Shown here in pieces: positions 20,395 through 34,615 of a stretch of DNA of 42,756 bases. The position numbers were made by a program, and so were the translations under genes. Below the pieces are notes generated by a model. The model ran no database searches. It had not been told where the DNA came from and worked only from the letters and a program-made list of their open reading frames with translations. The stretch lies in UHGV virus genome UHGV-0334807. One strand, 5' to 3'. The stretch is from a virus. Every line of letters begins with the position of its first letter. The stretch's first letter is position 1.

Positions 20395-20445
20395 TGCGCG
20401 TCTACCGACCCTCGGTGTTTTGGATTTCGGAAAGGACCCGCGACC
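20395..20445 (-). promoter_or_regulatory. cos site (lambda-like cosQ/cosN), putative
   Basis: Minus strand reads GGGTCCTTTCCG, a 17 nt spacer, then GGGTCGGTAGACGCGCAAAAACTCGCT, paralleling the lambda right end (GGGTCCTTTCCG...) and cosN GGGCGGCGACCTCGCGGGTTTTCGCT; just upstream of the terminase small subunit. Confidence 0.4.
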
Positions 20446-20684
20446 AGGGGGCTATCTCCCTTTCAGGACAGGAATTAGGGGCTCGCATCAGGTTCATCAA
20501 ACTCAACTGTAGCCTCGCGGCGTACTTGTTTGCATACATCAGCTTTGTGTATCTGATTATCAGCGTAAGCTTTCACTTTGGCAGCGAGCCATCCTTTTGT
20601 GCTGTATCGATAGACTACCGAACAAGTTTTCCATATATGTATATATCTTGAACTTATTGATATCATTACAGAAAAACAACAACC

Positions 20685-20945
20685 ATGAGAACGCAAAAAA
20701 TGAACAGAGAAAAAATTGAAGCCTTAATGAGCGTAATATTAAAAGAAGCTGACCCAAAAAAGTTTCCTGAGAAGTTATCAGAGGACGCCATCGTATCTTT
20801 TTATCGTGCGAACTCCTCTTATCTAAATTGTTCAACTTTAAGAGAATGGCTAAGCGGCGAAGCAGAGCCTTCAGATGAGATACTTCAGAAGATTATGGTT
20901 CAGAACAACTGGCGCGCAACAAAATGGTCAAATCAGTTACCTTAA
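20685..20945 (+). CDS. hypothetical protein (opposite-strand moron between lysis genes and cos)
   Basis: 86 aa ORF of normal composition in an AT-rich interval; no clear Shine-Dalgarno. Confidence 0.3.
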   Translation: MRTQKMNREKIEALMSVILKEADPKKFPEKLSEDAIVSFYRANSSYLNCSTLREWLSGEAEPSDEILQKIMVQNNWRATKWSNQLP

Positions 20946-21004
20946 TCTGTTGAATGTGTGCCGCCTTAAAACAAAAAGGCGGCCTCTCGTTAAAGTAAAT
21001 TACC

Positions 21005-21199
21005 CTATTTTCCACCAAGGCATGAAGCCTCTGCCCCGGTTGAATCAATACAACCACCGTTCGCAGTAGTAATCTTCGTACCCGGCGCGATCATCACGTG
21101 TTTAATACTGCTGCCGTCAGCGCGAGTCGCTTCGGTGTATGTCGAATGTGTGCAGCCTGCCAGCGTGAAGAACGCGACAGCTAAGAGAAGTTTTTTCAC
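21005..21199 (-). CDS. small lipoprotein (lysis-associated or moron)
   Basis: 64 aa with signal peptide and lipobox LAGC; not proline-rich so not a typical Rz1. Confidence 0.4.
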   Translation of the reverse strand: MKKLLLAVAFFTLAGCTHSTYTEATRADGSSIKHVMIAPGTKITTANGGCIDSTGAEASCLGGK

Positions 21200-21206
21200 G
21201 TTTTAC

Positions 21207-21686
21207 CTACGCTTCTGAGATAGATTTCTCAGCATTCACCAATGGAAGTGATTGTGGAACATCCGTTTGACCTGCTGGCCAGCGGTAGCCTGTTACGCGG
21301 GAACGAGGAAAAGCTTTGATATTTACTTCATCTGCCTGGTTGCCCCCCAAAATCATTAAATCCCCGGCGGCATTTTTCCCGACAACAAAGCCGACGTGAC
21401 CACCGCCAGACCGAGACAGAATAGCAATGCATCCATAGGCGGGTTCCTTCAGTTCATTACCCCAATCGAGATAAGAATTCGCAGACTCAAAACGCGTTGA
21501 GCGAATACCCGCACGTTCCAGCATTGCCCCGGTGAAAGCAGCGCACCACGGTGTTTCGTCATCCTTAATGCCGCCGCGTTTGATATCTTTCCAGTACTGC
21601 ACAATTTCTGCAGCATGTTGCTTCCCTTTCATTTCCCGAATGCCGAGGTTTTTTCGAGCCTCGATTAGCCATTTAGGATCCGTCAT
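21207..21686 (-). CDS. endolysin-like peptidoglycan hydrolase (putative Cys/His peptidase type)
   Basis: 159 aa downstream of two small membrane proteins; candidate catalytic Cys (CAAFTG) and His (GGGHVGF). Confidence 0.45.
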   Translation of the reverse strand: MTDPKWLIEARKNLGIREMKGKQHAAEIVQYWKDIKRGGIKDDETPWCAAFTGAMLERAGIRSTRFESANSYLDWGNELKEPAYGCIAILSRSGGGHVGFVVGKNAAGDLMILGGNQADEVNIKAFPRSRVTGYRWPAGQTDVPQSLPLVNAEKSISEA

Positions 21687-21958
21687 TACCTGTCTCCTGT
21701 TATTTTTGAAATATTCCCTCGTGCCCGCCAGACAGCAATACAGATGGTGAGGTTGAGAAAGAACTCTGCGGGATCAACCTGCGTATATTTCCCGTAAAAA
21801 ATTCGTAGGGCTATCCACGCAGCAGACAGAATCGCGAGGTAAGCAGTTAGTGAGATGAAAAAACGATAGCGGCCTGTTTTTTGAAAAAACATCAACCGTA
21901 GTGCCAACATCAGACAAATAATTGCATTGGCATTGATGAGGACAGAGTGCAGGGTCAT
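21686..21958 (-). CDS. small membrane protein (holin/antiholin-like)
   Basis: 90 aa with hydrophobic helices, in the lysis cassette. Confidence 0.4.
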   Translation of the reverse strand: MTLHSVLINANAIICLMLALRLMFFQKTGRYRFFISLTAYLAILSAAWIALRIFYGKYTQVDPAEFFLNLTICIAVWRARGNISKITGDR

Positions 21959-22422
21959 TATTTCATCCCCTTATCTGATTTCCATAAACGAGCTTGTGAC
22001 ATGATCCGCAACAGTGATGTAACGCTGATTACTGATGCAACCAGTGCACCAATGGCGGGAGAGACTTTTACTGTTACGGGAGGGTTCAGGTGACTCAGCA
22101 CCGCGTTCAGAATACCGGTAATGATGGCTGACGCTGTCTCAGCGCAATACACACCGCCAACAAACGAAATGAGTGCGAAAATAACCTGCTTCCAGAATCG
22201 ATGCTGCCCGGACGACAACACATAGAGAGCTGCGCCTGCCAGCGCACAGATCATCACTGCAGGTGTTGCCTCAGGAAATAACGCAGCAAACGTCACCCCC
22301 GCCGAGCCAGCAGCAACGCCAGCGGTTAGAGGTTCAGACATGATTTTTCCTGATTCAGAAACGACAAAACCCCGCCGTGGCGAGGTTCTTAGAAATTTGG
22401 CAACATACCAAATTAGCGTCAA
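21958..22422 (-). CDS. holin-like membrane protein
   Basis: Multiple TM helices; likely true start MSEPLTAGV at about 22341, preceded by a promoter/terminator pair. Confidence 0.45.
   Translation of the reverse strand: MTLIWYVAKFLRTSPRRGFVVSESGKIMSEPLTAGVAAGSAGVTFAALFPEATPAVMICALAGAALYVLSSGQHRFWKQVIFALISFVGGVYCAETASAIITGILNAVLSHLNPPVTVKVSPAIGALVASVISVTSLLRIMSQARLWKSDKGMK
22356..22385 (-). terminator. tR'-like intrinsic terminator between Q and lysis genes
   Basis: Minus strand CCTCGC-CACG-GCGGGG hairpin followed by TTTTGTCGTTTCTG; a TTGACG/CAAATT promoter-like pair lies about 35 nt upstream (about 22394..22422). Confidence 0.45.
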
Positions 22423-22453
22423 ATATGGCCTATTTTGTTCGTTTTTGCAAGCA

Positions 22454-23125
22454 TTATACGCAAACGTCGTCTAAATGGTTCTGATAATGATGCAAAGTTG
22501 CAAGAAGTGCCACTTCATCAAGTGCTCTCACCGCCTCTTTCATTCCTACCCAGTGCAGGGAGTATGTTTCGCACCAGGTGGAACGAGAAACCGACAGCAT
22601 TCCTGCTAGGGTAGATCCGGCCATCTCCTTAAAATCCTCGCGTTTATTTGCTGCTGCGACCGCCTGCACGGACAACCACACCAACGAAAGCAGGTGCTTA
22701 ACTACTTTTCTCTGAGTTGACGCGGGGATGTTTCCTTTATAGCGACTCCAGACAGCCTCACAAATAGCTGTTTGGTGTTTGAATGCCAGGTTACCACCGT
22801 AGCAATAACGCAACCACGCTTGCTGACTTGCATCCAGCGAGTTCACAGAACGCCGCCAGGATGAATCAGCAAATTCAAAATCACTCATCGGCGGCGCGGG
22901 GCGACGTCTGCTGAAACTTTCCAGAGCGTAAACTGGCGTAACCAGAGCATCAACGGTCCGGTCCTCCAGCTGCACACGGTGAATATGTTTGCGTGGGTAT
23001 GCGTTTTTGTCTGCCGGTGGGTGCTCACACAATGCTTCCAGTTGCCCCTTAGAACCACCAGACAAATCCCGCAATGCAGCGCGCAGTTTTATGCGGGTAT
23101 ATTCCAATAAATACTCGTTACTCAT
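22454..23125 (-). CDS. late-gene antiterminator Q-like protein
   Basis: 223 aa ORF immediately upstream of the late promoter/terminator and lysis genes. Confidence 0.5.
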   Translation of the reverse strand: MSNEYLLEYTRIKLRAALRDLSGGSKGQLEALCEHPPADKNAYPRKHIHRVQLEDRTVDALVTPVYALESFSRRRPAPPMSDFEFADSSWRRSVNSLDASQQAWLRYCYGGNLAFKHQTAICEAVWSRYKGNIPASTQRKVVKHLLSLVWLSVQAVAAANKREDFKEMAGSTLAGMLSVSRSTWCETYSLHWVGMKEAVRALDEVALLATLHHYQNHLDDVCV

Positions 23126-23418
23126 CAGATAAACTCCTCATCGCGCCAGATAGCCAGTGTTCTGAAAACTCCCTCAGCGTGCATCAACAACAATGAGTCG
23201 TGCTCGTAATCCGTTTTTGTACGTCCGTCGATGGCATCGTGACACGCACTGCAGGCGATAGCGCCCTGCATATCGTGAGGTTTGATGGCTGTGCCGCACG
23301 TTCCGGCGAGACGATAATGAGCCAGTACGCTGGTTTCAGGATTGTGATTGCACACACCGGGGATACGCACAGTACAAGCGCGACTGCGTGCAGCTTTTCT
23401 CAGGTCGATTTTTTTCAT
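23125..23418 (-). CDS. nin-region protein, YbcO-like (DUF1364, putative nuclease)
   Basis: 97 aa with VRIPGVCNHNPETSVLAH...CSACHDAIDGR motif resembling the recalled DLP12 YbcO sequence. Confidence 0.5.
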   Translation of the reverse strand: MKKIDLRKAARSRACTVRIPGVCNHNPETSVLAHYRLAGTCGTAIKPHDMQGAIACSACHDAIDGRTKTDYEHDSLLLMHAEGVFRTLAIWRDEEFI

Positions 23419-24011
23419 GATGTGTAATCCAGCAGCTGCGCGGCGGCATTTTCAGCGGCCTCCTGAGAGGCAAATGTGCGGAACAAAATATAATTCCACA
23501 GCACATCTAAAACGGCTGAATACAGTTGACCGAACTCAAGATCGTCCATCGCTGCAAACGAGATTGAACGAGGTACGCGCATCAAACTGCCGTCTGGCAT
23601 CTGATGAACGTCATAAAACCCAGCTTCCATAATCGCCCATGCGCGAAACGCCTCGAACGACTTCACCGCACTGATACTCCCCGCGCGCTTTTCCGACTCA
23701 TCGAGAAGATACTGATCAGCCAGCTCTGCCATGACATCACCGTGTCCACCGTAATACGCCAGTAACTTAACGTAGCCGTGAACCAGTTCGCGCTCCGCAG
23801 GAGAAATAGCCCCTCCGGACGGATGCCAGTAATCAAAGCCCAGGTTGAGAAGTGAGAAAAATTTACGATGAAACGCGGGATTACGCGCCTGTTTGAAATC
23901 TGCATACACAACAGCACCTGGTTTGACTCGTTCAGTCAACCAGCGTTGCGTGTCTGGTGTCGCGGGTATTAGCGAACCGCCGGATACCCTGATAAATGAA
24001 TGCTGCGCCAT
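23415..24011 (-). CDS. nin-region protein of unknown function
   Basis: 198 aa ORF with GGAG ribosome-binding site; no recognisable motifs. Confidence 0.4.
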   Translation of the reverse strand: MAQHSFIRVSGGSLIPATPDTQRWLTERVKPGAVVYADFKQARNPAFHRKFFSLLNLGFDYWHPSGGAISPAERELVHGYVKLLAYYGGHGDVMAELADQYLLDESEKRAGSISAVKSFEAFRAWAIMEAGFYDVHQMPDGSLMRVPRSISFAAMDDLEFGQLYSAVLDVLWNYILFRTFASQEAAENAAAQLLDYTS

Positions 24012-24088
24012 GGTTAACTCCAGGTGGCGCGGCAGTGTTCAGAAAATGATGCCGGGTGTTCAATCCAGCACCGATATTATACCGTGTT

Positions 24089-24289
24089 TTACGCGTCAGG
24101 GGGTGTAATAGTATATCCAGCTATTTCTGCCAACTCGAGAAACGCCATCAGGCTGGCAATCCGCTCATCATCGGTCAGAACACGCACACCAACGATGTGT
24201 CCGTCCTTACGCTTGATAACAGCCCGGCATGTTTCCGGTAGTTCGCCTATAGATTCTTGAATATTCATGTCTTCCCCCCAATGCCACAA
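24089..24289 (-). CDS. small protein under a LexA-box promoter (candidate SOS-induced antirepressor)
   Basis: Likely start MNIQES at about 24268 with GGGGGAA ribosome-binding site; promoter ATGACA-N17-TATAAA overlaps a LexA box. Confidence 0.5.
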   Translation of the reverse strand: MWHWGEDMNIQESIGELPETCRAVIKRKDGHIVGVRVLTDDERIASLMAFLELAEIAGYTITPPDA

Positions 24290-24290
24290 C

Positions 24291-24306
24291 CTGTATATTT
24301 ATACAG
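24291..24306. promoter_or_regulatory. LexA box (SOS operator)
   Basis: CTGTATATTTATACAG matches CTGT-N8-ACAG with an AT-rich palindromic core; overlaps the -10 of the minus-strand promoter. Confidence 0.7.
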
Positions 24307-24419
24307 TATTTTATGGCATTTGTCATAACGCCAAATACAATGAGGGAATAATGAACAATTATATTCACGTCGTGAATTTTATTAAACGGTTTTATAGGGG
24401 ATTAAACCGTTTATGGTCA

Positions 24420-25097
24420 TTATTTATCACTCCTGTAAATTGGAATTAACCATTTTCTAATCGTCGACGCTGCAGGTGGGTCAGAGTATTTCGCCACAAA
24501 AATACCGGATATGTATTGCACGCCACGCGATAATGGCGCTGTCGGGTTTTCAGTAAAAAAACGATCAGCCAGTTCAATGGCTTCGCTTTTTAATCTGTGC
24601 TGTGGTCGTCCTCCGCCCTTTGTTCCCAGGTATCGCGCCAGTTGTTTGAAACGGTAGGCGATGATTAACGGTCGCATCATCATATTGAAAAAATCGCGGG
24701 CATCGTTGTCAGCGCCTTGCGCTATCAACAGTGCAAAAAACAGATACGGGATTATGTACACTTCAGGAGATATACGAACCCGTTCACAAGTTGGTGGAGC
24801 CAACTCAATAAGTAAGTCAGCCAGCGGATTCCCCTTTTCTCCACGTTTGTAATAGCGATACAGCGGCCCGATATCAAGTTCACTCACGTCGATTTCAGGA
24901 TGCCCGGCAACGACTGTACGTATCTCTTCTGCCAGAGCGTCAAATATTGCCCCGGTCCGTTCAAGATAGAGCCTCCGGGTCGAACCGCGATCATCCAACG
25001 CCCGTAACATATCTAACCGGCTAACGAAAGTTTCAGGCCAGTCCTCATAGAAGGTTTTCATAATTACCTCGAATAATAAAAACTGCACTATTTGCAC
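24420..25097 (-). CDS. hypothetical protein
   Basis: 225 aa ORF (likely start MKTFYEDW); no recognisable motifs. Confidence 0.4.
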   Translation of the reverse strand: MQIVQFLLFEVIMKTFYEDWPETFVSRLDMLRALDDRGSTRRLYLERTGAIFDALAEEIRTVVAGHPEIDVSELDIGPLYRYYKRGEKGNPLADLLIELAPPTCERVRISPEVYIIPYLFFALLIAQGADNDARDFFNMMMRPLIIAYRFKQLARYLGTKGGGRPQHRLKSEAIELADRFFTENPTAPLSRGVQYISGIFVAKYSDPPAASTIRKWLIPIYRSDK

Positions 25098-25304
25098 AAT
25101 TTATTATTCGTTTTCACGCCGCTGAGTTCTATAAAAAAGAAAAAACCTCCGAGGCAGGGTTTTGTTATGGCTCGTTAAATCATCATCCAACTTTTTAGAC
25201 TGAACGGTGATACTTGCAAATATTTGAAAATATGGGCTGGAACCCTATCTTATGATGTGCCTGGTAATTTATATTGTTGGGTCTTTATATCATGAGGAAT
25301 CACT

Positions 25305-25538
25305 ATGGGTACGTTAGGCAACCAGCCGTGCAGAAGTCGTTATGAGTTCGATGATTTTAATTTAGCCAATCGAGCTGCGGCTCTTACTAAGTTAGCAAAA
25401 GAAACTGGTGTATCGGTGGATACCTTAATCAAACTTGAAATTGCTATGCAACTGAATCGGCTCAACTCCATCCTTATCGAAAACGGTGACAAGATGGACG
25501 AGAATCTGGCAGGTATTGGCGAGATACTGCAGAAGTGA
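25305..25538 (+). CDS. small protein, possible helix-turn-helix
   Basis: 77 aa with GAGGAA ribosome-binding site; segment LAKETGVSVDTLIKLE is HTH-like; followed by a CCCCTC/GAGGGG hairpin. Confidence 0.4.
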   Translation: MGTLGNQPCRSRYEFDDFNLANRAAALTKLAKETGVSVDTLIKLEIAMQLNRLNSILIENGDKMDENLAGIGEILQK

Positions 25539-25827
25539 GAGTAGCCCCTCTTCTGAGGGGTTGCACATTTAAAATATTAAGGGCGGTCTTCTTCACGTAC
25601 ACAGTCACCTGGTCGAATCGTTCACGCATACTGAGTACAAAAAATCTCAACGATAAGATCAGGTTAGACCTGTATTTTCCAGAAACATATAGACGCCTAA
25701 AAAAACACTAAACTCATGATTATCATGTATGTTTTTACTGGAAACATTGAACCATCCACAATACAGCGTAAAAAGCAAGCAATTCACAAGATTTTAAAGT
25801 GATTTATCTGGAAGACTTTACTACTAA

Positions 25828-25872
25828 CAGTTAATATCGTACCAGAAGTGCAGAATTTGCACTTTTACAGGA
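25828..25872. promoter_or_regulatory. nested dyad symmetry upstream of the peptidase operon (putative operator)
   Basis: AGTGCA-GAATT-TGCACT nested within CGTACCA...TGGTACG, about 65 bp upstream of the peptidase start. Confidence 0.4.
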
Positions 25873-25936
25873 ATGTGGTACGGAACATGCTGTCTATATT
25901 TCAACCAATAATCGTAATGCAGTAACTGGAGGAGCT

Positions 25937-26425
25937 ATGGCTACCAACCCAAGAGAGCACGCCCGGCGAGTGCTGGACACGTTCTGGTGCGGGCGTGGTT
26001 TCCCTGTTGATCCAGCGAAAATTGCTCACGACATGGGATTAGATGTTTTTATTACCGATCTTCCTGGGAAAGTTTCTGGCGCACTGATTAAACAAAAAGA
26101 TCAAGATCCAGCGATCTTTCTAAACAGTGATGACAACAAAGTTCGTCAACGTTTTTCATGTGGGCATGAGTTGGGGCATTACATCGCCCGGCAAGCATCG
26201 CATAGCGATGAATATGAGTACGTTGATTTACGTGGCGAAACCGCAAGCGCCGGAACGCATCCTGATGAAATTTTTGCAAACAAGTTCGCAGCAGAACTTC
26301 TGATGCCGGTAGATGAGGTCAGAAAACTGCACGCTGACGGTCAACCAAGTTATATAATGGCGCATTATTTTGGCGTATCTGACGATGCGATGACTTATCG
26401 TTTAAAGAACTTGAGGTTGGGGTAA
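25937..26425 (+). CDS. ImmA/IrrE-family zinc metallopeptidase (HEXXH)
   Basis: 162 aa with RQRFSCGHELGHY (HEXXH) and FANKFAAELLMP motifs; GGAGG ribosome-binding site. Confidence 0.7.
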   Translation: MATNPREHARRVLDTFWCGRGFPVDPAKIAHDMGLDVFITDLPGKVSGALIKQKDQDPAIFLNSDDNKVRQRFSCGHELGHYIARQASHSDEYEYVDLRGETASAGTHPDEIFANKFAAELLMPVDEVRKLHADGQPSYIMAHYFGVSDDAMTYRLKNLRLG

Positions 26426-26434
26426 CGCTTTAAA

Positions 26435-27040
26435 ATGCCATCGGATGACGATTTTAACAGCCGTTTCAAACAGGAAGTAGCACGCAGACTGAAGGATTCC
26501 CTCAACCTACACCGTCAGTTAGCAGAAGAGGTTGAGCCGGAGGACGATGAAACTCCGGTTCAGTCTCCTGACGAAGCTTCACCTCAGCCAAAGGTTTCGC
26601 ACGCCCCCAAAAAAACGGCTGTCCGTATTCGCGGAATAGCCAGAAAAAGAGCTGCCGAAGCTCGCAAAATGGCTGTAGCTGCGTCTAGCAAAAGAATTCC
26701 AACTGCTACACCCTCTCAACAAGTCACCCGTACTGAGAGTAAAATCTTGACCGAGTTCACATCTGTGAAACAGGTGAATTCACTTGATACCGAGCATGAG
26801 CGCAAACAACTCAACAACAAAGATTTTGAAGCAGAAATCGCTCTAAAAAAACGATACGGGAAATGGTTCCTGATTATCCTTGCTTTCCAACTTCTGATAA
26901 TGAATGGTGTATTTATTGCCGACGGCGCAGGTAAGCTGGAATTTGAGGATTTAACACTACAGTTGTACATGGGCGGTACTTTGACAGAGGTATTCGGCCT
27001 CGTGCTGGTCGTGACAAAATACCTTTTTAAACGCAAGTAA
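26435..27040 (+). CDS. membrane-anchored protein, basic disordered N-terminal region and two C-terminal TM helices
   Basis: 201 aa; starts 10 bp after the peptidase stop (operon); C-terminal WFLIILAFQLLIMNGVFI and TLTEVFGLVLVVT hydrophobic segments. Confidence 0.55.
   Translation: MPSDDDFNSRFKQEVARRLKDSLNLHRQLAEEVEPEDDETPVQSPDEASPQPKVSHAPKKTAVRIRGIARKRAAEARKMAVAASSKRIPTATPSQQVTRTESKILTEFTSVKQVNSLDTEHERKQLNNKDFEAEIALKKRYGKWFLIILAFQLLIMNGVFIADGAGKLEFEDLTLQLYMGGTLTEVFGLVLVVTKYLFKRK
26969..27040 (+). repeat. direct repeat copy 1 (last 23 codons of the 201 aa gene)
   Basis: About 90 percent identical to 30391..30462, which has mostly synonymous changes and a different stop codon. Confidence 0.75.
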
Positions 27041-27502
27041 CTCTCTCGGTCCAACAGTCTTTCGAAGGCCCTGATCAAAGGGCCTTGATAAATTAGCAGT
27101 GCGTTGAAAACAGATAGTTATTCCCATCAGTTCCAACGTAATACACATCAAAAAAATCACCATTCTTTTGCTCTAACGTCAACACCTACCCTTAAAAAAA
27201 TAATTCTCCAAGAATGAGAAAGTTATTGTGTGTATTAGATAAGATATGAGCTGACACATCTATGGCGTGGAGCCAAATTTAATATGACAGTCCGCTCTGT
27301 GCCATAAGCGGACTGTCAATAAACAGATTCACTTGTAAATCTTGAAGCTATACATATTTACTTTCAATGATAAATAAAAGAACTATCCAAAAATCACTGA
27401 GAGCATATTTTAACTAACCCTCCGCTACTATTAACATAAATTTCACCCAACCATAATTAAATTGATACATATAGCAACTTACCTTGATACGAATCATCTG
27501 GG

Positions 27503-28201
27503 TTATATTTTTCCATATTTTTTTCCGTCAAATCGAATCATGCCAGGATCAAGAAAATTAATTAAATCGATTAACGCGTGCTGTATTCTGATTAGCCTTT
27601 CTTTATAAATTCCGATATCTCTTGTCATATTTATCACTTCATTGTTTAAATCTAAAAAAAATGGCTCATTGATAAAGCAATTTTCCTTTGTGAAACTGCC
27701 GTAACCTATGCAATCAAATCCAGTATCTGTTGATATCAGCATCTTTTCTGCAATAGCTCTCTGCTCTCCTATGAAAAACATAAAATACTGACCAAAGACG
27801 TCTGTTTGGATTAATGAGTTAATATTGTTCTGTAATCTAATAAACTCCCTCATTTTTTTATTTTTTTCTAGGCTAAGGTATTGAATGTCTATGCGGGCAG
27901 CTTCTGTCCATGCAAAAAACTGGGAAAAAAGAAAAACAGTATTGTTGATAACATAATCTTGTTGGCGCTTATTCCCATTATGATAAAACTCTTCAATGAA
28001 CCCCAATTCTAATATATTATAAATACGGCTTTGTAAGTCTGAAGCTGAGCGAATTAACGGTTCAATATAGTACTGATGTTTTCTCCTTACATCCAGTGAT
28101 TCATTGAGCTTGTTTATTCTATTCTGATTATAAGTAGATATAGCAATAGAGATTATAGCTATTGCACCACTAATAAAGCTTGAAATTAATGCCGTACCCA
28201 T
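27503..28201 (-). CDS. membrane protein with one N-terminal TM helix and aromatic-rich soluble domain (unknown function)
   Basis: 232 aa, AT-rich codon usage, AAAGGA ribosome-binding site; flanked by long AT-rich noncoding DNA. Confidence 0.55.
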   Translation of the reverse strand: MGTALISSFISGAIAIISIAISTYNQNRINKLNESLDVRRKHQYYIEPLIRSASDLQSRIYNILELGFIEEFYHNGNKRQQDYVINNTVFLFSQFFAWTEAARIDIQYLSLEKNKKMREFIRLQNNINSLIQTDVFGQYFMFFIGEQRAIAEKMLISTDTGFDCIGYGSFTKENCFINEPFFLDLNNEVINMTRDIGIYKERLIRIQHALIDLINFLDPGMIRFDGKKYGKI

Positions 28202-29388
28202 CTAAAAGTCCTTTGATTCTTGCTTGGTTAACAAAATGACATAATTTTATTTAATGCCATAACAACTTAACAATATATCATAATATGATTATTATGGTGT
28301 AGCTTGTCGCATCTACGCTCCATTACAAACAGATGTAAGATATAACCTATATGTTTTAGCCAGCAAATTCGAAAGCATTCAAAGTAGTCTCATCGAACTC
28401 TCGAAACCCTATGTCTTCGGGTATAAAATATTTAAATCCATTTGCATAATATCGACTCATGTTTATTATATTCTCCCCATTCACCATTAAGATTTGACAT
28501 TATTTTCAACAATCGGTTATTGCAAGATTGAAATATATTTTTACTTGACACAATATTCCATGTAGCCCAGCGATTCGACTTACCCCCAACTATACGGACA
28601 ATCTAAATTAAATCGATGATTTTTTGATACATTCTCCTCTCTCCATTACTTTATGTTTTTGTTCCCCAAAAATACCTTGCTCTCTAAAAAATAATTGTTC
28701 TTTAAGTTCAAAATCGAGATCTACATGAGCGTTAGATACAAAGCTAATATGTTGAAATGTCTTTCCCCCCCCATAACGGCATTGTTATCTAAACTATGTT
28801 ACACAAATATAATATTACCCTTTCAACGTAATCCAAGAATAAGATTAATGCCATTATATATATCATAAATATGATATTTTGTATATTTTTATCATTTAGC
28901 CTTGATTGTACTAGGTGTACTCTCAACGAAGTAGGGAAAGTCTGTTCCTCGCTCACAGCTGCCCTTCAGTAAGCGAAAAAATGCCTACTCGGTGCCATAT
29001 ACAGCCATTGTTATTAACAGCAGGGAATAATTCAAAACTGAAATTAAATATCTACCTTTTACAGTAGAAATAGTTCCTCCAGGACACTATCCATTGCCGG
29101 GCACAATCACTCGGGGTATAACGATATAAAATATGTTCATGATAGTGCAGGTTCGTATATTAAGTTCAGCAGCGAAAACATGCCTTACAGGTTTCCGGTT
29201 TTGGGAGCGTCGTTACAGGATCCTGCGCATACCGTTCCCATCTGTTGAATTAAAGGTTTCACAGCCTTTGCCGATATCACCTTTTACCTTACCTGTGATG
29301 CGTTCAGTGCTCAGCGTTGTTTACTGTAGCTCTCGGGACTGATTACAGACCGCGTCTTAAAAACCAATCCTTACTCTAAAGGGAATTC

Positions 29389-30312
29389 ATGAGATTAAAA
29401 TACTCAGTACTCTTACTCGCCATTGCCCTTACAGGCTGTGATAACAAAAAAGATGAGATCGGTTGTTCTTCGGAAATAACCCAGTCAGCTCTCATGGATT
29501 TATTAAAAAAATCTGCTTATGAAGGACTCTCTGAACAGGTCGATAAATACCCTGATGTCACTAATCAGACCAAACGAAGCACACTGGACAAGATCAAACT
29601 AGCCATCTCTGAGATCTCCACAACATCAAGTGACACGGGCAGCACAATGAAAACTTGTGAAGGGACCGTGACGATGACTCTATCTGCGAACGAGTACGTC
29701 CAGCTTTCAGATGCTTACAGAAAGAATTTTAATCGTAATCTCGATAAGCAAATGGAAAGCCTGTTTTTGGAGAACAACGCAAACGCCTTTTCAAAACGTA
29801 TCACCTACACCGTGCAGGCGACCGACGATCAGAAAAACGTTTTTGTAAAAACCTCTACTGATAATCCGATATCAGTGGGCGCCGCTTTACTGACATCGCT
29901 TTCCATTATCACCCCGATCGTTGAGCAGCAGAAAATCCAGCAGGCTAAGGATGCCCAACAGAGTCAAATTGAAGCGGAACAACAGGTGCAACTCAGGGCG
30001 CAAGAACAGGCTAAGTATGAGGCGGAGAAGCAAATAGAGAGACAGGCACAACTTCAGCCGCAAAAAGCTGACAACCTTGATCAGTCCCGAATGGCATTTG
30101 CGAATGCCGACTCTGATTTGAGTACCGTCTGGAGCAAGTTAACCCCGGCGAAGAAAAAAGATTTGCTGCCTTCTCAGCGTCAGTGGATCAAAACTAAGGA
30201 TGCTATGTGCGGTAAAGTTTCAATGCAGGGAACAGATGCTGAAGTCAAGAAAATGGTCGACTGCCAGACGCAAATGACCCTTTCAAGAATCGCTTTCCTC
30301 AGAAACCAATAA
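29389..30312 (+). CDS. lipoprotein with Gln-rich coiled coil and DUF1311-like (LprI-like) C-terminal domain
   Basis: Signal peptide with lipobox LTGC; C-terminus with two Cys and QRQW motif resembling DUF1311. Confidence 0.5.
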   Translation: MRLKYSVLLLAIALTGCDNKKDEIGCSSEITQSALMDLLKKSAYEGLSEQVDKYPDVTNQTKRSTLDKIKLAISEISTTSSDTGSTMKTCEGTVTMTLSANEYVQLSDAYRKNFNRNLDKQMESLFLENNANAFSKRITYTVQATDDQKNVFVKTSTDNPISVGAALLTSLSIITPIVEQQKIQQAKDAQQSQIEAEQQVQLRAQEQAKYEAEKQIERQAQLQPQKADNLDQSRMAFANADSDLSTVWSKLTPAKKKDLLPSQRQWIKTKDAMCGKVSMQGTDAEVKKMVDCQTQMTLSRIAFLRNQ

Positions 30313-30326
30313 CTGAAGTCTCCTTC

Positions 30327-30360
30327 AAGCTGGCGCCAGGTGTTAACCTGGTGCCAGCTT
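30327..30360. repeat. 34 bp near-perfect palindrome (15 bp stem, 4 nt loop) at cassette boundary
   Basis: AAGCTGGCGCCAGGT-GTTA-ACCTGGTGCCAGCTT with one G-U wobble; no U-tract on either strand, so not a canonical intrinsic terminator. Confidence 0.6.
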
Positions 30361-30390
30361 AGTCATCAAGTGCATATGTAACTGTTTTAT

Positions 30391-30462
30391 ATGGGCGGTA
30401 CTTTGACAGAGGTATTCGGTCTCGTGCTGGTCGTGGTCAAATACCTTTTTAAGCGCAAATAG
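30391..30462 (+). repeat. direct repeat copy 2: orphan 23-codon gene-end fragment (MGGTLTEVFGLVLVVVKYLFKRK)
   Basis: Diverged duplicate of 26969..27040; begins with ATG right after a stop. Confidence 0.75.
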
Positions 30463-30486
30463 AGTATTTCCGCCCCAAACAACCTG

Positions 30487-31323
30487 TCAAAATGCTGAAT
30501 TAGCAACGGATATAGCCGACTTTTTCCCCATTACCATCAATTTATCCAGTGTCATACTTCGCAGATTGTCGCTGTGGATCACCAGATACCCTGCCCGCTC
30601 AGCGATCTCTTTGAAAGCGTCAAAGGTCATCAGATGTTCGCCTTTGGCAACATGGCGCATCCCGGTCACTTTTCCATTTTTGATAGTGGTGATAAAAGAA
30701 AAATCTGGAATGGTTGGGTGATTTTCATCGAGTAGCAGGCAGTGGATGTATTCAATCGCCTCTAACATTTGCGTCTGTGACAGTTGTTCTATGTGAGAGA
30801 CGGCGAAGCGTTGATGAATCATGGTGTAGGCATCGGGATACATCATGCCTTTCTTGCCGACCAGTATATTAACGGCATCACGCAAGGGAGTACGGTCATC
30901 GGTAGTTGTACTCCGCCTCTCTGGACGCTGGCTAAAATAACAATCTTCCAGCTTTTCGAAAACTTCCCAGGCCTGTTCTGTTTCCAGCATTTTGGCATGG
31001 CGAGCTGCGCCGCGTTCTGTCCAGAGAATGAGGGATCGGGTATGTTTAGCAACTGACTGACTATCTGTCAGTCTGTTTTTGAAGTCGCGTAATTCATTAC
31101 CTTCCAGCTTAAAAAAATGCTTTCCTACGACAAATCTGGCGATGTTGCGCTTGAAGTTTTGCTGGATACCATTTACTTCCGTGCCATACAAACTGGCAAG
31201 CAATTCAGTAGTGATGACGGGAAGTTGGTTATGATGTAGCGGAGAAAGGGATTCCGCAGATATTTGGACTGTCATCGCAGTGGCCTCACTTAGTGTTTTT
31301 TTCATCACCACCAGCGACGCCAA
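30487..31323 (-). CDS. antirepressor-like protein (ORF6N/AntA-type N-terminal domain)
   Basis: N-terminal region VITTELLASLYGTEVNGIQQNFKRNIARF; probable true start MTVQ at about 31275 with GAGG ribosome-binding site. Confidence 0.55.
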   Translation of the reverse strand: MASLVVMKKTLSEATAMTVQISAESLSPLHHNQLPVITTELLASLYGTEVNGIQQNFKRNIARFVVGKHFFKLEGNELRDFKNRLTDSQSVAKHTRSLILWTERGAARHAKMLETEQAWEVFEKLEDCYFSQRPERRSTTTDDRTPLRDAVNILVGKKGMMYPDAYTMIHQRFAVSHIEQLSQTQMLEAIEYIHCLLLDENHPTIPDFSFITTIKNGKVTGMRHVAKGEHLMTFDAFKEIAERAGYLVIHSDNLRSMTLDKLMVMGKKSAISVANSAF

Positions 31324-31547
31324 TCATCTGGTGGTGAGCTGTGCAGGGTTGGCGTAACCGGCTAAGTGAACCCGGCGCTTCCACAGAAGCCCCCACACAG
31401 CCCACCATAATGCGAATGTGGCCGTGCCTAACACATAAAAAAACCGCTAACGCGGCTATGCGTCACTTAGATATCCGGGACGCCAATCCCGGCAACCGAT
31501 TTTGCGGCTGCGCGGAAACTATAGCCCCGGACTTTTTCTAAGTCAAT

Positions 31548-33172: not shown

Positions 33173-34615
33173 TTAAAATTCATTTGTGCGAGAATTATCG
33201 CTACGGGAATAACGTTTATTTTTTTCTGAGCGGTCGTTGGTAAGGCGATAAACCTCCTCATCGCTGATATCAATAACTGAGCCATTTTTCATCAGGGCAT
33301 AGGCTGTTCCCGATGGTCCTTCGCGGTTCAGACGTAGCAACATTTCCATGAGATTTGGGTCGGCATTTTCGTTATAAACAGCATCACGATAGAGGCCAAT
33401 CCAGACATCGCAATCTTGTTCGATCTGCCCGGTATCTTTACTGTCGCTCGGGTTAGGCCGCTTATCGGCACGTTCTTCAAGCTTTCGGTTGAGTTGCGTC
33501 AGCAGGACCACAACACAATCCAGCTCTTTTGCCAGGTTCTTCAAACCGGTTGTGATATCGCCATACGCAATATCCCTACGCTCTGCCGATTCGGTCTTCA
33601 TCAGCGTCAAATAGTCAATTGCCACCAGGCCAACCGAGCCACGCATCCGTTTAACTTTTCGACATTCAGCGACAATATGCGCAAGGGTTACACCTGCCGT
33701 GCTGTCAATCATCATGTTGGATTCGGCAATCTCCCCCGCCTTTGCTATTGCGAGACTCAATTCAGATTCATCGTTAGGGCCAAGATAAAAAATCTCCGAA
33801 TTGACCTTTGCTTCCTGCGCAACCATGCGTTCAATGAGACTTCTGTCAGTCATTTCCAGGCTAAATACCAGCGTCGGCAAACGATGATTCAGAGCAAAAT
33901 GCACCGCAATTTTATTAAACGCGGCTGTCTTGCCCATTTTTGGCCGGGCACCAATAACGACCAATGAACCTCTTAACGCCTGCTTTGGTGCCATTAAGCG
34001 ATCAAGGCTTTCGATTCCGAGCGTTAGTCCGGCTGCATGTGCTGGATCATTGAAACGGCGCTCAAGGTCATCTATCCAGTCATCGACGACTTCACTTGCC
34101 GGACGCAAACCGCCCTTATGCCCGGTACGGGAATGTTCGGCCACCTGCCCAATCACTTGCTGAACGGCGGTGATCCTGTCAGTAGCAGTCATATCTGCAG
34201 GCTGGATCATAATCTCCAGACAAGAATTCAACTTTTCCACGGCATAACGAAGAATGGCTTTTTCACGTACAATTTTCGCGTAGTTGACCATTGAGGCCGG
34301 AATCGCCGCCTTACTCATTTCAGCCAGGTATGCGAATCCCCCCACGCGCTCATACAGCCCCTTCGATTCCATCAGTTCGGTCAGTGTTATCAGGTCAGTT
34401 GGTTTATCAGCTTGAAATAATCCTTTGATCTCCCGGTAGATAACCTGATGCGCATTGATATAAAACGTTTCCGGTTTCAGTAACGCAAATACCGCATTGG
34501 TTCTGTCGTGGTCGGTATTCAGCATCAGACAGCCCAGAACAGCCTGTTCTGCGTCAACGCTGTACAGTGCAATCGCGTTATTTATCATTTGCGCGTTCTT
34601 CCTTGACCGAAACAT
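33173..34615 (-). CDS. replicative DNA helicase, DnaB family
   Basis: 480 aa with Walker A GARPKMGKTA, LVFSLEM and VVLLTQLNR motifs. Confidence 0.9.
   Translation of the reverse strand: MFRSRKNAQMINNAIALYSVDAEQAVLGCLMLNTDHDRTNAVFALLKPETFYINAHQVIYREIKGLFQADKPTDLITLTELMESKGLYERVGGFAYLAEMSKAAIPASMVNYAKIVREKAILRYAVEKLNSCLEIMIQPADMTATDRITAVQQVIGQVAEHSRTGHKGGLRPASEVVDDWIDDLERRFNDPAHAAGLTLGIESLDRLMAPKQALRGSLVVIGARPKMGKTAAFNKIAVHFALNHRLPTLVFSLEMTDRSLIERMVAQEAKVNSEIFYLGPNDESELSLAIAKAGEIAESNMMIDSTAGVTLAHIVAECRKVKRMRGSVGLVAIDYLTLMKTESAERRDIAYGDITTGLKNLAKELDCVVVLLTQLNRKLEERADKRPNPSDSKDTGQIEQDCDVWIGLYRDAVYNENADPNLMEMLLRLNREGPSGTAYALMKNGSVIDISDEEVYRLTNDRSEKNKRYSRSDNSRTNEF

What the first reader, a model, noticed from the sequence alone, without database searches (positions are those of the whole stretch)
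26969..30462. A 3.4 kb cassette bounded by a diverged 72 bp gene-end duplication and a 34 bp palindrome
The last 23 codons of the 201 aa membrane-protein gene (26969..27040) recur at 30391..30462 as an orphan fragment starting with ATG just after a stop. The copies differ by about 8 substitutions, mostly synonymous, with a different stop codon, so the second copy derives from a diverged allele of the same gene rather than a recent target-site duplication. The enclosed segment carries the orphan membrane protein, the DUF1311-like lipoprotein and a 34 bp near-perfect palindrome (30327..30360) without a U-tract. This marks a mosaic recombination junction where an accessory cassette was swapped in at a conserved gene end.
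Basis: seen in the sequence. Interest (0 to 1): 0.55.

Follow-up and report, generated by a model that had tools for sequence, protein, structure and literature searches.

The report
Gene-end relic at prophage cargo hotspot
The repeated 72-base gene end is real: it is a decaying leftover of a second copy of a prophage membrane-protein gene. It sits at the edge of a hotspot where related E. coli prophages carry different anti-phage genes, and the piece that is swapped today is a smaller inner cassette flanked by hairpin sites also used by P2-like phages.

Summary
Window 26969-27040 and 30391-30462 align without gaps at 65/72, or 81 nt at 89% from 26959/30381. The 34-nt palindrome is at 30327-30360.

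The window is the E. coli ST131 lambdoid prophage. About 403 of 5426 complete genomes carry this arrangement.

- Copy B is a dead relic. It has a frameshift or an in-frame stop in relatives.
- B is fixed next to the LprI gene and its hairpin in every relative, including prophages with no intact 201-aa gene. It is therefore an old mosaic scar, not the footprint of the present cargo.
- The two copies still recombine. One genome (GPEC172) has lost everything between them through a crossover in the 29-nt identical stretch. All four flank combinations exist.
- The 3.4 kb is three modules, not one cassette.
- What is swapped among relatives lies between about 27.06-27.32 kb and 28.95-28.99 kb. Alternatives include PD-T4-3, HEC-08 and GmrSD-like genes.
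- The palindrome occurs only downstream of the LprI gene.

The inner cassette (about 27305-28955) is flanked by two hairpin sites homologous to the flanks of the P2 Z/fun hotspot. Units made of these hairpins separate cargo genes across Enterobacterales. A conserved 200-aa tyrosine recombinase gene sits exactly between the two loop motifs. This lead is unproven.

The parts
25937..26425 (+). ImmA/IrrE (Peptidase_M78) metalloprotease gene, first gene of a two-gene module with the 201-aa gene
   Evidence: Pfam PF06114 E=8e-18. PADLOC capP-like E=2e-25. The same gene pair is found next to int in other prophages.
26435..27040 (+). 201-aa two-TM membrane-protein gene (phrog_5346). Its last 27-29 codons are the most conserved part of the family.
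26959..27040 (+). Repeat copy A: the intact 3' end of the 201-aa gene
27041..27230 (+). Native 3' flank of the 201-aa gene ('dsA'), with a hairpin at about 27064-27087. It travels with copy A in relatives.
   Evidence: In L006/L039 the same flank follows the copy in the B position.
27231..27318 (+). Left boundary element (L): about 55 nt plus the hairpin 27285-27318. The arms are GTCCGCTC 27290-27297 and AAGCGGAC 27306-27313, with the loop TGTGCCAT 27298-27305. It is homologous to the sequence downstream of gene G in P2-like phages.
   Evidence: 86% identity to P2-EC58. 81 nt at 71.6%, E=3e-10, to HQ103, whose cargo is unrelated. The element is kept in lambdoid relatives with other cargo. Fold z = -5.8.
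27305..28955 (.). Inner cassette: AT-rich (about 31-33% GC) unit carrying the 232-aa ORF. This is the part that differs among relatives and that occurs in other genetic contexts.
   Evidence: Composition. 86.7% identical to the P2-EC58 Z-region ORF1 record. 87% to the P2-like IMG/VR contig L076. 99.5% to a chromosomal island of strain M21816. Homology switches right after TCGCTCA at 28949-28955.
27503..28201 (-). 232-aa ORF with an N-terminal TM segment (phrog_5606; named 'lysogenic protein' in P2-EC58). Candidate defence or lysogenic-conversion gene; function not shown.
   Evidence: There is a weak PADLOC hit to RTasTM, E=2e-5.
28940..28963 (+). Right boundary site (R): GTCTGTT-CCTCGCTCACA-GCTGCC. 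The loop core TCGCTCA lies at 28949-28955 and the 3' arm is degenerate here. A degenerate L-like remnant follows at about 28989-29006.
   Evidence: The R-core motif gives 72 hits inside hotspots against 1 in 493 kb of flanking DNA.
28960..29388 (+). Conserved non-coding leader of the LprI gene ('preLprI'), the right-hand conserved flank of the variable slot
29389..30312 (+). LprI/DUF1311-family lipoprotein gene, constant in the prophage family
30327..30360 (+). 34-nt palindrome, the 3' hairpin of the LprI gene. It is terminator-like but has no U-tract, and it pairs better on the + strand (G.U versus an A/C mismatch).
   Evidence: Variants in relatives break pairs without compensation.
30381..30462 (+). 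Repeat copy B: an orphan, non-functional relic of the 3' end of a diverged allele of the 201-aa gene
   Evidence: The most widespread variant has a 1-nt deletion. B is present without any intact gene in CFSAN061769.
30487..31323 (-). ORF6N-domain antirepressor gene, 24 nt from the stop codon of copy B. It is the conserved right neighbour.
   Evidence: C4/isrK-type RNAs lie just upstream at 31327-31524.

Best explanation
The two copies are the working 3' end of a prophage membrane-protein gene (A) and a dead remnant of the 3' end of another allele of that gene (B).

B was created once, long ago. A non-homologous join placed the LprI gene and its 3' hairpin against about codon 172 of a resident copy of the gene, which lay tail-to-tail with the antirepressor (ORF6N) gene. 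That junction has been inherited by the whole prophage family. This step is inferred.

The last 27-29 codons are the most conserved stretch of the gene family. The relic therefore still matches intact copies well enough to act as a short patch of homology. General recombination (RecA or a phage recombinase; inferred) between tails deletes or reassorts whatever lies between them. The outcomes are shown: one deletion derivative, and all four combinations of flanks.

The 3.4 kb between the copies is a composite of three parts:
- the gene's own downstream flank;
- an AT-rich cassette with a 232-aa ORF;
- the LprI module.

Only the middle part turns over among relatives, where it is replaced by other cargo, much of it known or candidate anti-phage genes. 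That cassette is bounded by two hairpin sites homologous to the flanks of the Z/fun hotspot of P2-like phages. The same cassettes occur in P2-like phages and in a chromosomal island, and their homology ends at the same loop heptamers. Exchange at these sites is therefore the likely mode of swapping. Whether it is enzyme-driven is not shown.
For: Repeat real and far beyond chance.

B is a pseudogene fragment. The most widespread variant lacks one base, which shifts the frame. A second kind of orphan (L006/L013/L014) has an in-frame stop.

The LprI-palindrome-B junction is identical in architecture in all relatives from E. coli genomes, IMG/VR and metagenomes. It is present in a prophage with no ImmA or 201-aa gene anywhere in the hotspot.

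The tail is the conserved part of the protein family, and the residues just upstream are hypervariable. Intact alleles (L022, L037) also switch from unalignable to 98% identical at the same point.

GPEC172 has gene and ORF6N adjacent. It is A-type up to the ATG and carries all 7 B-type variants. Its flanks are 99.9% identical to the window over 6.6 + 6.7 kb, so the crossover lay in the 29-nt identical block.

The fourth combination, LprI-palindrome-tail followed by the A-type flank, occurs in L006/L039.

Variant patterns differ along the tail in different lineages, so there is no single crossover point.

Module breakpoints lie at 27062 or about 27313-27317 on the left and 28946-28988 on the right.

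Cargo alternatives are PD-T4-3, HEC-08, GmrSD_N/NsnA-like, a T5orf172 GIY-YIG protein and an SMEK_N protein.

Inner cassette and P2 flanks.
Against: - The founding event is inferred. No native full-length B-type allele next to ORF6N was found other than the GPEC172 chimera, so the ancestral arrangement is not documented.
- Two kinds of orphan tail with unrelated upstream flanks (B after the LprI hairpin; A' in L006/L013/L014) begin at the same position, 'acgttac', about 15 nt before the ATG. This is only partly explained by that point being the edge of the conserved segment. A weak protein-level match suggests A' is a longer decayed pseudogene.
- The pattern of an identical 29-nt core flanked by diverged arms also fits an att-type site.
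- No recombination gene was identified in the window that would drive short-homology exchange.
Confidence: 0.7

Rival explanations
1. attL/attR of an integrative element. On this view a 3.4-kb element integrated site-specifically into the 3' end of the 201-aa gene. It brought its own copy of the gene end (A plus the downstream flank) and displaced the resident end (B), as e14 and phage 21 do at icd.
For: - The direct imperfect repeats equal a gene 3' end, and the gene is kept intact.
- An identical 29-nt block is flanked by diverged sequence on both sides.
- attB-like (GPEC172), attL-like, attR-like and attP-like (L006/L039) junctions all exist.
- In other prophages the homologous gene abuts an integrase gene.
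Against: - There is no recombinase gene between the copies.
- The content is a mosaic of independently assorting modules.
- B occurs without A and without any intact gene.
- Variant patterns indicate several crossover positions within the tail.
- The loci where the gene sits beside int have no orphan tails, and there the gene lies inside the prophage.
Confidence: 0.1
2. One reading: one accessory cassette, bounded by the gene-end duplication and the palindrome, was swapped in at the conserved gene end.
For: Relatives differ between the copies, and one genome lacks the whole segment.
Against: - The swapped part ends at about 28950-28990, not at the palindrome or at B.
- LprI, palindrome and B form a constant block.
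- The palindrome never occurs apart from LprI.
- The segment is three modules with different relatives. The middle one is found in P2-like phages and in a chromosomal island without the others.
Confidence: 0.08
3. Copy B is functional: either a 23-codon membrane micro-protein or a cis-acting RNA/DNA signal downstream of the antirepressor gene, kept by selection.
For: The frame is open with an ATG in the ST131 type. Three of five changed codons are synonymous. B is retained in all relatives.
Against: - There is a 1-nt deletion in the most widespread variant, and many replacements in L006/L039.
- No Shine-Dalgarno sequence precedes the ATG.
- There is no structure on either strand (z = -1.0 and 0.0).
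- There is no Rfam match.
- The synonymous bias is expected for a relic of a once-functional allele.
Confidence: 0.03
4. Chance similarity, assembly artefact or recent tandem duplication.
For: None beyond the bare fact of a repeat.
Against: - E = 2e-22, with 0 of 100 shuffles matching.
- The same arrangement is present in 403 complete genomes and in independent metagenome contigs.
- The 11% divergence, together with different stop codons and different flanks, excludes a recent duplication.
Confidence: 0.01

Closest known systems
Mosaic junctions and gene remnants in lambdoid phages (modular/'moron' model; established knowledge from Hendrix, Juhala, Clark and colleagues, recalled from memory). 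Related are the small intergenic pseudogene remnants in P2/P4 defence hotspots (PMC13586616).
   Same: There are sharp homology breaks between related prophages and accessory genes on the opposite strand to the phage operon. A short dead fragment of a neighbouring gene is left at the junction. [quoted passage not shown]
   Different: Here the remnant is shown to be still recombinogenic. There is a deletion derivative, and all four flank combinations are observed. The locus lies in a lambdoid prophage of ST131, not in P2 or P4.
P2 Z/fun-locus cassettes flanked by inverted repeats (Nilsson, Karlsson & Haggard-Ljungquist 2004, as summarised in PMC8987985; GenBank AJ512683 annotation)
   Same: The 232-aa ORF is the homologue of P2-EC58 'Z-region ORF1'. 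Both flanking repeat elements are present. [quoted passage not shown]
   Different: - The slot lies in a lambdoid prophage between the Q-side genes and the antirepressor, not between P2 genes G and FI.
- Relatives hold arrays of several cassettes separated by composite R-L units.
- The 3' arm of the R site is degenerate in the window.
Replacement of a gene's 3' end by an integrating element (e14 and phage 21 at icd; established knowledge, recalled from memory)
   Same: The intact gene ends in one version of its 3' end, and a diverged orphan copy of the same end lies a few kb downstream.
   Different: There is no integrase at either end. The intervening DNA is not one element. The orphan exists without the gene in some relatives.
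Integron cassette arrays (IntI, attI, attC)
   Same: In relatives, single-gene cassettes of unrelated function are separated by a conserved structured repeat. A tyrosine recombinase gene is bounded by the same site motifs.
   Different: - The recombinase has 200 aa rather than the roughly 320 aa of IntI.
- The sites lack the RYYYAAC/GTTRRRY cores.
- Cassette orientation is mixed.
- No recombinase lies in the window.
- Activity is untested.

Membership tests
Phage mosaic junction with a gene remnant | Abrupt loss of homology between otherwise closely related genomes at the feature | tested here: met
   Breakpoints lie at 27062, about 27313-27317 and 28946-28988. The flanks are 97-100% identical.
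Phage mosaic junction with a gene remnant | The extra copy is a truncated, non-functional fragment of a neighbouring gene | tested here: met
   Only the last 27-29 codons are present. Relatives show a frameshift or an in-frame stop.
att-type duplication by an integrative element in a gene's 3' end | Integrase or recombinase gene inside the element next to one repeat | tested here: not met
   The only ORFs with support in 27041-30390 are the 232-aa ORF and LprI. Neither has a recombinase domain.
att-type duplication by an integrative element in a gene's 3' end | The element is present or absent as one unit, and an empty site exists | tested here: inconclusive
   An empty site exists in 1 of 5426 genomes. 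However, the content is mosaic and B occurs without A.
P2 Z/fun-type inverted-repeat-flanked cassette | Cargo and left repeat homologous to those of P2-like phages | tested here: met
   86.7% identity over 1.7 kb to AJ512683. The left element alone matches over 81 nt, E = 3e-10, to HQ103, whose cargo is different.
P2 Z/fun-type inverted-repeat-flanked cassette | Right repeat present at the cargo boundary | tested here: met
   GTCTGTTCCTCGCTCACAGC lies at 28940-28959 and aligns with the P2, HQ103 and P2-EC58 right repeats. On its own the match is weak (29 nt, E = 0.11). The motif is highly specific to hotspots.
P2 Z/fun-type inverted-repeat-flanked cassette | Located between genes G and FI of a P2-like phage | tested here: not met
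   The window is a lambdoid-type prophage with a Q antiterminator, a DnaB helicase and cro/cI-type regulators.
Integron | IntI-type integrase adjacent to attI, and attC sites with RYYYAAC...GTTRRRY cores | tested here: not met
   There is no recombinase in the window. The associated recombinase elsewhere has 200 aa. The site sequences lack the attC cores, judged by inspection.
Intrinsic (Rho-independent) terminator (for the 34-nt palindrome) | GC-rich stem-loop directly followed by a U-tract | tested here: not met
   The stem is strong. No T-run lies within 2 nt, and the consensus scan does not call it.
LprI/DUF1311 lipoprotein | Pfam PF07007 above its gathering score, plus a lipobox | tested here: met
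   30.8 bits against a cut-off of 22. The N-terminus MRLKYSVLLLAIALTGC contains LTGC.

The most novel reading that the evidence does not exclude
The hairpin sites that flank the inner cassette (L at 27285-27318, R at 28940-28963) may belong to an undescribed, integron-like site-specific cassette system of Enterobacterales.

- A roughly 75-nt unit separates single accessory or defence genes. It consists of hairpin R (GTCCGCT-CCTCGCTCACA-GCGGAC), a linker, and hairpin L (GTCCGCTC-YGTGCCAR-GAGCGGAC).
- The unit is found in P2-like, lambdoid, e14-like and Rac/Qin-like prophages and in chromosomal islands.
- Identical cassettes in different backbones change partners right after TCGCTCA in the R loop, and within or just after TGTGCCA in the L loop.
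- A highly conserved 200-aa tyrosine recombinase gene lies exactly between those two heptamers, where the 36-nt linker otherwise sits.

If that enzyme acts on these sites in trans, it would explain how defence genes hop between unrelated phages and islands. Evidence.

The probability given covers the system being both real and not yet described. The inverted repeats at the P2 fun locus, and the idea of site-specific exchange there, date from 2004.
Probability: 0.3. Interest if true: 0.8.

Novelty: new member of a known kind. Interest (0 to 1): 0.45.

Why it matters
The flagged repeat is an ordinary scar of phage mosaicism. It is nevertheless a clean, documented case of a dead gene end that still serves as a recombination handle. 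Through it a widespread ST131 prophage can lose its accessory block.

The region is also a previously unremarked cargo hotspot of this prophage family. Relatives there carry validated or candidate anti-phage genes.

The more consequential point is the inner cassette. It shares both flanking hairpin sites with the Z/fun hotspot of P2-like phages, and the same cassettes are found in both phage types and in a chromosomal island. Two papers read here (PMC9122126, PMC13586616) say the mechanism of rapid defence-gene swapping at such hotspots is unknown. Conserved sites, fixed breakpoints and a candidate recombinase would make that question directly testable.

Tried and rejected
- Chance or artefact was rejected.
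- The palindrome as a recurring cassette boundary was rejected. It occurs only downstream of LprI, and its variants break pairs.
- Copy B as a structured RNA or a known RNA family was rejected. There is no fold signal and no Rfam hit.
- The LprI module was not found in sequenced phages, either as DNA or as protein, in the INPHARED set.
- Reading Nilsson et al. 2004 and Odegrip et al. 2006 directly failed because neither is held. Their claim is cited second-hand from PMC8987985.
- A native full-length B-type allele next to ORF6N was not found, apart from the GPEC172 chimera.
- Orphan tails were not found in prophages where the homologous gene pair sits beside int.
- The L/R hairpins as canonical attC, REP or ERIC elements were rejected on sequence inspection and copy number (1-5 per genome, in 29% of E. 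coli).
- The L/R unit matches no Rfam family.
- No paper holds its sequence or describes the recombinase.
- No recombinase or Red/RecT-like gene was recognised in the window.
- L081, an apparent P2-like phage with LprI as cargo, was a false lead. The LprI-like match lies 6 kb away.


Full report
**1. The observation**

Window 26969-27040 and 30391-30462 align without gaps with 65 of 72 bases identical. The repeat extends to 81 nt at 89%, 26959-27039 vs 30381-30461. The self-match has E = 2e-22. A 45-nt probe finds only these two places, against none in 100 shuffles.

The seven differences are three synonymous third-position changes, one codon changed at all three positions (ACA Thr to GTC Val), and TAA to TAG (read).

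Copy A is the end of a 201-aa ORF, 26435-27040. Copy B is an orphan that starts with ATG four codons after an in-frame TAA.

The palindrome 30327-30360 has 15-nt arms and a GTTA loop. It folds at -39.3 kcal/mol (z = -5.4) on the + strand, where the single imperfect position is a G.U pair. On the - strand that position is an A/C mismatch. No T-run follows it.

**2. Where this is**

The window is the lambdoid-type prophage of E. coli ST131 (EC958, JJ1886). The region 25900-31400 is essentially identical in 403 of 5426 complete E. coli genomes.

The phage's early and late genes run on the - strand: DnaB helicase at 33173-34615, Q antiterminator at 22454-23125, with the integrase at 41609-42655. 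The + strand genes ImmA (25937-26425), the 201-aa gene and LprI (29389-30312) form an island of opposite polarity.

The right neighbour (30487-31323, - strand) is an ORF6N antirepressor. C4 antisense RNA, its a1/b1 target and isrK lie directly upstream.

**3. Module map from relatives**

I compared the window with E. coli genomes (L003-L007, L047, L048, L259), 16 IMG/VR contigs (L008-L023) and 14 metagenome contigs (L033-L046).

- The block preLprI (28960-29388), LprI, palindrome, copy B and ORF6N is present and collinear in nearly every relative. L006/L039 lack the ORF6N gene, and L017 keeps only the 3' end of LprI.
- ImmA, the 201-aa gene, copy A and about 200 nt of downstream flank (27041-27230) form a second block. 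It is present in only some relatives.
- Cargo differs between these blocks. Left breakpoints lie at 27062 or about 27313-27317. Right breakpoints lie at 28946-28988.

The cargo alternatives are:
- PD-T4-3 with an HNH protein (L005, L017);
- HEC-08 with a 200-aa tyrosine recombinase and an ETEC_3214 protein (L004);
- a GmrSD_N/NsnA-like pair (L006, L013);
- a T5orf172 GIY-YIG protein (L003);
- an SMEK_N protein with a methyltransferase (L022).

The locus is thus a cargo hotspot, largely for defence genes.

**4. What copy B is**

B is a decaying pseudogene fragment.
- The most widespread variant (L005, L009, L010, L013, L019, L023, L033, L035, L038, L040, L042, L043, L046) lacks one G and is out of frame.
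- The L006/L039 variant has many replacements.
- A second kind of orphan (A' in L006, L013, L014) has an in-frame stop.

B is present in CFSAN061769, whose whole hotspot from the Q-side genes to ORF6N contains no ImmA or 201-aa gene. LD91-1 has the same backbone. B is therefore older than the present cargo and independent of copy A.

Its synonymous-biased divergence from A shows that it came from a once-functional diverged allele.

**5. Why the tail**

In an alignment of 20 family members from Escherichia, Klebsiella, Enterobacter, Salmonella, Cronobacter, Serratia, Plesiomonas and others, the last 29 residues (LTLQLYMGGTLTEVFGLVLVVTKYLFKRK) are nearly invariant. The ten residues before them are hypervariable.

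Intact alleles in L022 and L037 likewise switch from unalignable to 98% identical at that point. The tail is therefore the one stretch that diverged phages share.

This at least partly explains why all orphan tails appear to begin at the same place. A weak protein-level match suggests that A' is a longer decayed pseudogene. The coincidence is not fully explained.

**6. The copies recombine**

A synthetic 'empty-site' query (201-aa gene joined to ORF6N) matched one genome contiguously, GPEC172.
- Its gene is A-type through the ATG and carries all seven B-type variants.
- Its flanks are 99.88% and 99.96% identical to the window over 6.6 and 6.7 kb.
- The crossover therefore lies in the 29-nt identical stretch, the longest uninterrupted identity in the repeat.
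- The 10 nt before the ATG are A-type in GPEC172 but differ at 3 positions in B. This argues that GPEC172 is a recombinant, not the ancestor.

The reciprocal combination also exists. In L006/L039 the LprI-palindrome-tail is followed by the A-type downstream flank.

All four flank combinations therefore exist. Variant patterns along the tail differ among lineages; for example, L003 and L017 B copies are A-type at position 63. This speaks for homologous exchange or gene conversion at several points rather than one fixed core.

An att-type reading is the main rival. It fails on three counts: there is no recombinase in the segment, the content is mosaic, and B occurs without A.

**7. The palindrome**

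A degenerate pattern for the palindrome hit 12 IMG/VR loci. In all of them it lies directly after LprI. Its variants in relatives break pairs without compensation.

It is the 3' hairpin of the LprI gene. It is probably a U-tract-less terminator, and possibly also a stop for antirepressor transcripts coming from the other side. That second role is inferred. It is not a recurrent cassette boundary.

**8. The inner cassette**

Window 27231-28959 is 86.7% identical to GenBank AJ512683, 'P2-EC58 proviral Z-region, ORF1'. Its depositors annotated left and right inverted repeats there.

The same cassette is 99.5% identical (27276-28970) in a chromosomal island of strain M21816. It is 87% identical in a P2-like IMG/VR contig.

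In P2-like phages the left repeat lies just after gene G and the right repeat just before the pF promoter of FI. Both are backbone.
- The window's left element (27231-27318) matches phage HQ103, whose cargo is unrelated, over 81 nt (E = 3e-10).
- The right motif aligns with those of P2, HQ103 and P2-EC58.
- Lambdoid relatives with other cargo keep both elements.
- Two further cassettes of L017 are 95-96% identical to cargo of P2-like hotspots.

A review (PMC8987985) summarises Nilsson et al. [quoted passage not shown] The inner cassette is a member of that known kind, here in a lambdoid prophage.

**9. A lead that goes further (partly followed)**

In the lambdoid arrays each cargo gene is followed by a unit of about 75 nt. 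It consists of hairpin R (GTCCGCT-CCTCGCTCACA-GCGGAC), CTTCAG plus a linker, and hairpin L (GTCCGCTC-YGTGCCAR-GAGCGGAC).

Specificity and spread:
- The R-core motif gives 72 hits inside hotspots. It gives 1 hit in 493 kb of upstream DNA and 5 on the opposite strand in 1.1 Mb.
- The unit occurs in 86 loci of species-representative genomes, nearly all Enterobacterales. There are arrays of four units, with one ORF between each, in Rahnella and Trabulsiella. Their cargo includes a hydrolase, ASCH, HNH, PD-T4-5-like, GNAT and LOG proteins.
- It occurs in 1567 of 5426 E. coli genomes at 1-5 copies and is never annotated. The contexts inspected were a prophage region with dicB/ydfD/hokD genes (Qin- or Rac-type), e14-type cargo at icd, and a thrW island next to Hachiman.
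- It matches no Rfam family, and no held paper contains its sequence.

Breakpoints: the same cassette in different backbones (the window vs P2-EC58 vs M21816, and the two L017 cassettes vs P2-like phages) always changes partner right after TCGCTCA in the R loop. On the other side the change lies within or just after TGTGCCA in the L loop.

Candidate recombinase:
- A 200-aa tyrosine recombinase with a Xer/integron-integrase-like catalytic domain is at least 92% identical at the protein level in 8 loci from 6 genera.
- The shared DNA is only about 700 nt. It starts right after TCGCTCA and ends right after TGTGCCA.
- The family is very large and highly conserved across Gammaproteobacteria.
- In Proteus it lies in the mutS-rpoS variable region among small accessory genes.
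- It is present in 904 of 5426 E. coli genomes, including some that carry this prophage.

Structure: covariation support for the hairpins is modest. 83.7% of cells are paired, and 22 cells show a change on both sides against 13.6 expected (14 of 500 shuffles reach that). One-sided changes are mostly U.G on the given strand.

Together this looks like a site-specific, integron-like cassette system, but nothing here shows activity. I could not establish whether it has been described beyond the 2004 inverted repeats.

**10. Verdict**

- The flagged duplication is an old mosaic scar that still works as a homology patch.
- The palindrome is the LprI gene's own hairpin.
- The true swappable unit is the inner P2-type cassette.
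- As given, the finding is an ordinary feature of phage mosaicism and a new member of a known kind. The hairpin-site and recombinase lead inside it is what deserves follow-up.

Noticed in passing
window 27285-27318 and 28940-29006; loci L004, L005, L017, L048, L178, L222, L252-L254: A conserved two-hairpin junction unit of about 75 nt (R: GTCCGCT-CCTCGCTCACA-GCGGAC; L: GTCCGCTC-YGTGCCAR-GAGCGGAC) separates cargo genes in prophage and island hotspots across Enterobacterales. It is present in 1567 of 5426 E. coli genomes, is unannotated, and matches no Rfam family. Homology breakpoints fall at the loop heptamers TCGCTCA and TGTGCCA.
   Followed up: partly
L004:2281-2981 (also L242, L245, L252, L198, L233, L182, L167, L255-L258): A 200-aa tyrosine recombinase gene is at least 92% identical at the protein level across six genera. 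Its roughly 700-nt shared DNA begins right after an R-site TCGCTCA and ends right after an L-site TGTGCCA. It is a candidate cognate recombinase of the junction units. It is present in 904 of 5426 E. coli genomes but absent from the window.
   Followed up: partly
window 31327-31524 (- strand): Rfam hits above gathering score lie directly upstream of the ORF6N gene: C4 antisense RNA (31327-31412), its a1/b1 target (31472-31524) and isrK (31437-31511). The neighbour is therefore a P1 immI / Gifsy-1 isrK-anrP-type antirepressor module.
   Followed up: no
window 29389-29420; also 26143-26177: A type I-E CRISPR spacer, carried in arrays of roughly 120 E. coli genomes, is 32/32 identical to the first 32 nt of the LprI gene. 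An ATG sits in the PAM position on the - strand. Another CRISPR-annotated 35-nt perfect match lies in the ImmA gene (strain JX21CE8).
   Followed up: partly
window 25937-27040; loci L024-L032: The ImmA (Peptidase_M78, capP-like) plus two-TM protein gene pair is a portable two-gene module. In other E. coli and Klebsiella prophages it sits at the prophage end, tail-to-tail with the integrase gene. Its function is unknown; a protease plus membrane-effector defence pair is a guess.
   Followed up: partly
window 25162-27151 vs L048:3920-4002: Relatives of the LD91-1/CFSAN061769 type lack the whole 2-kb block (77-aa ORF, ImmA, 201-aa gene, proximal flank). About 83 unrelated nt stand in its place, while 27152-27312 is kept. 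The ImmA module is thus itself an insertion/deletion polymorphism.
   Followed up: partly
window 17900-26425 vs phage record ON470624.1: The deposited 'complete genome' of Escherichia phage vB_EcoM-705R4 (27,112 bp) is 99.99% identical to the window. It ends exactly at the last base of the ImmA gene, at the edge of the hotspot. The record looks like a truncated prophage assembly.
   Followed up: no
window 30463-30490 (- strand): A promoter-like site (TTGACA, 16 nt, AATACT; 10 of 12 matches) overlaps the ORF6N stop codon and points into copy B and the palindrome. The number of such sites in the region is no higher than in shuffles.
   Followed up: no
ST131 genomes NZ_CP195410.1, NZ_CP107122.1; metagenome locus L043: Some ST131 strains carry IS1 inside this region, one in the LprI region and one in the 232-aa cassette. 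One metagenome contig has an internal deletion in LprI (codons about 46-100). The accessory block is therefore dispensable.
   Followed up: no
window 30341-30353 vs L-site loop: The right arm of the LprI palindrome (CCTGGTGCCAGCTT) resembles the end of the recombinase cassette (GCAGCCCTGTGCCAGAAGC), i.e. a hairpin followed by TGCCAG. This is a possible degenerate L-type site at the LprI-B junction. It rests on a 7-mer only and may be chance.
   Followed up: no
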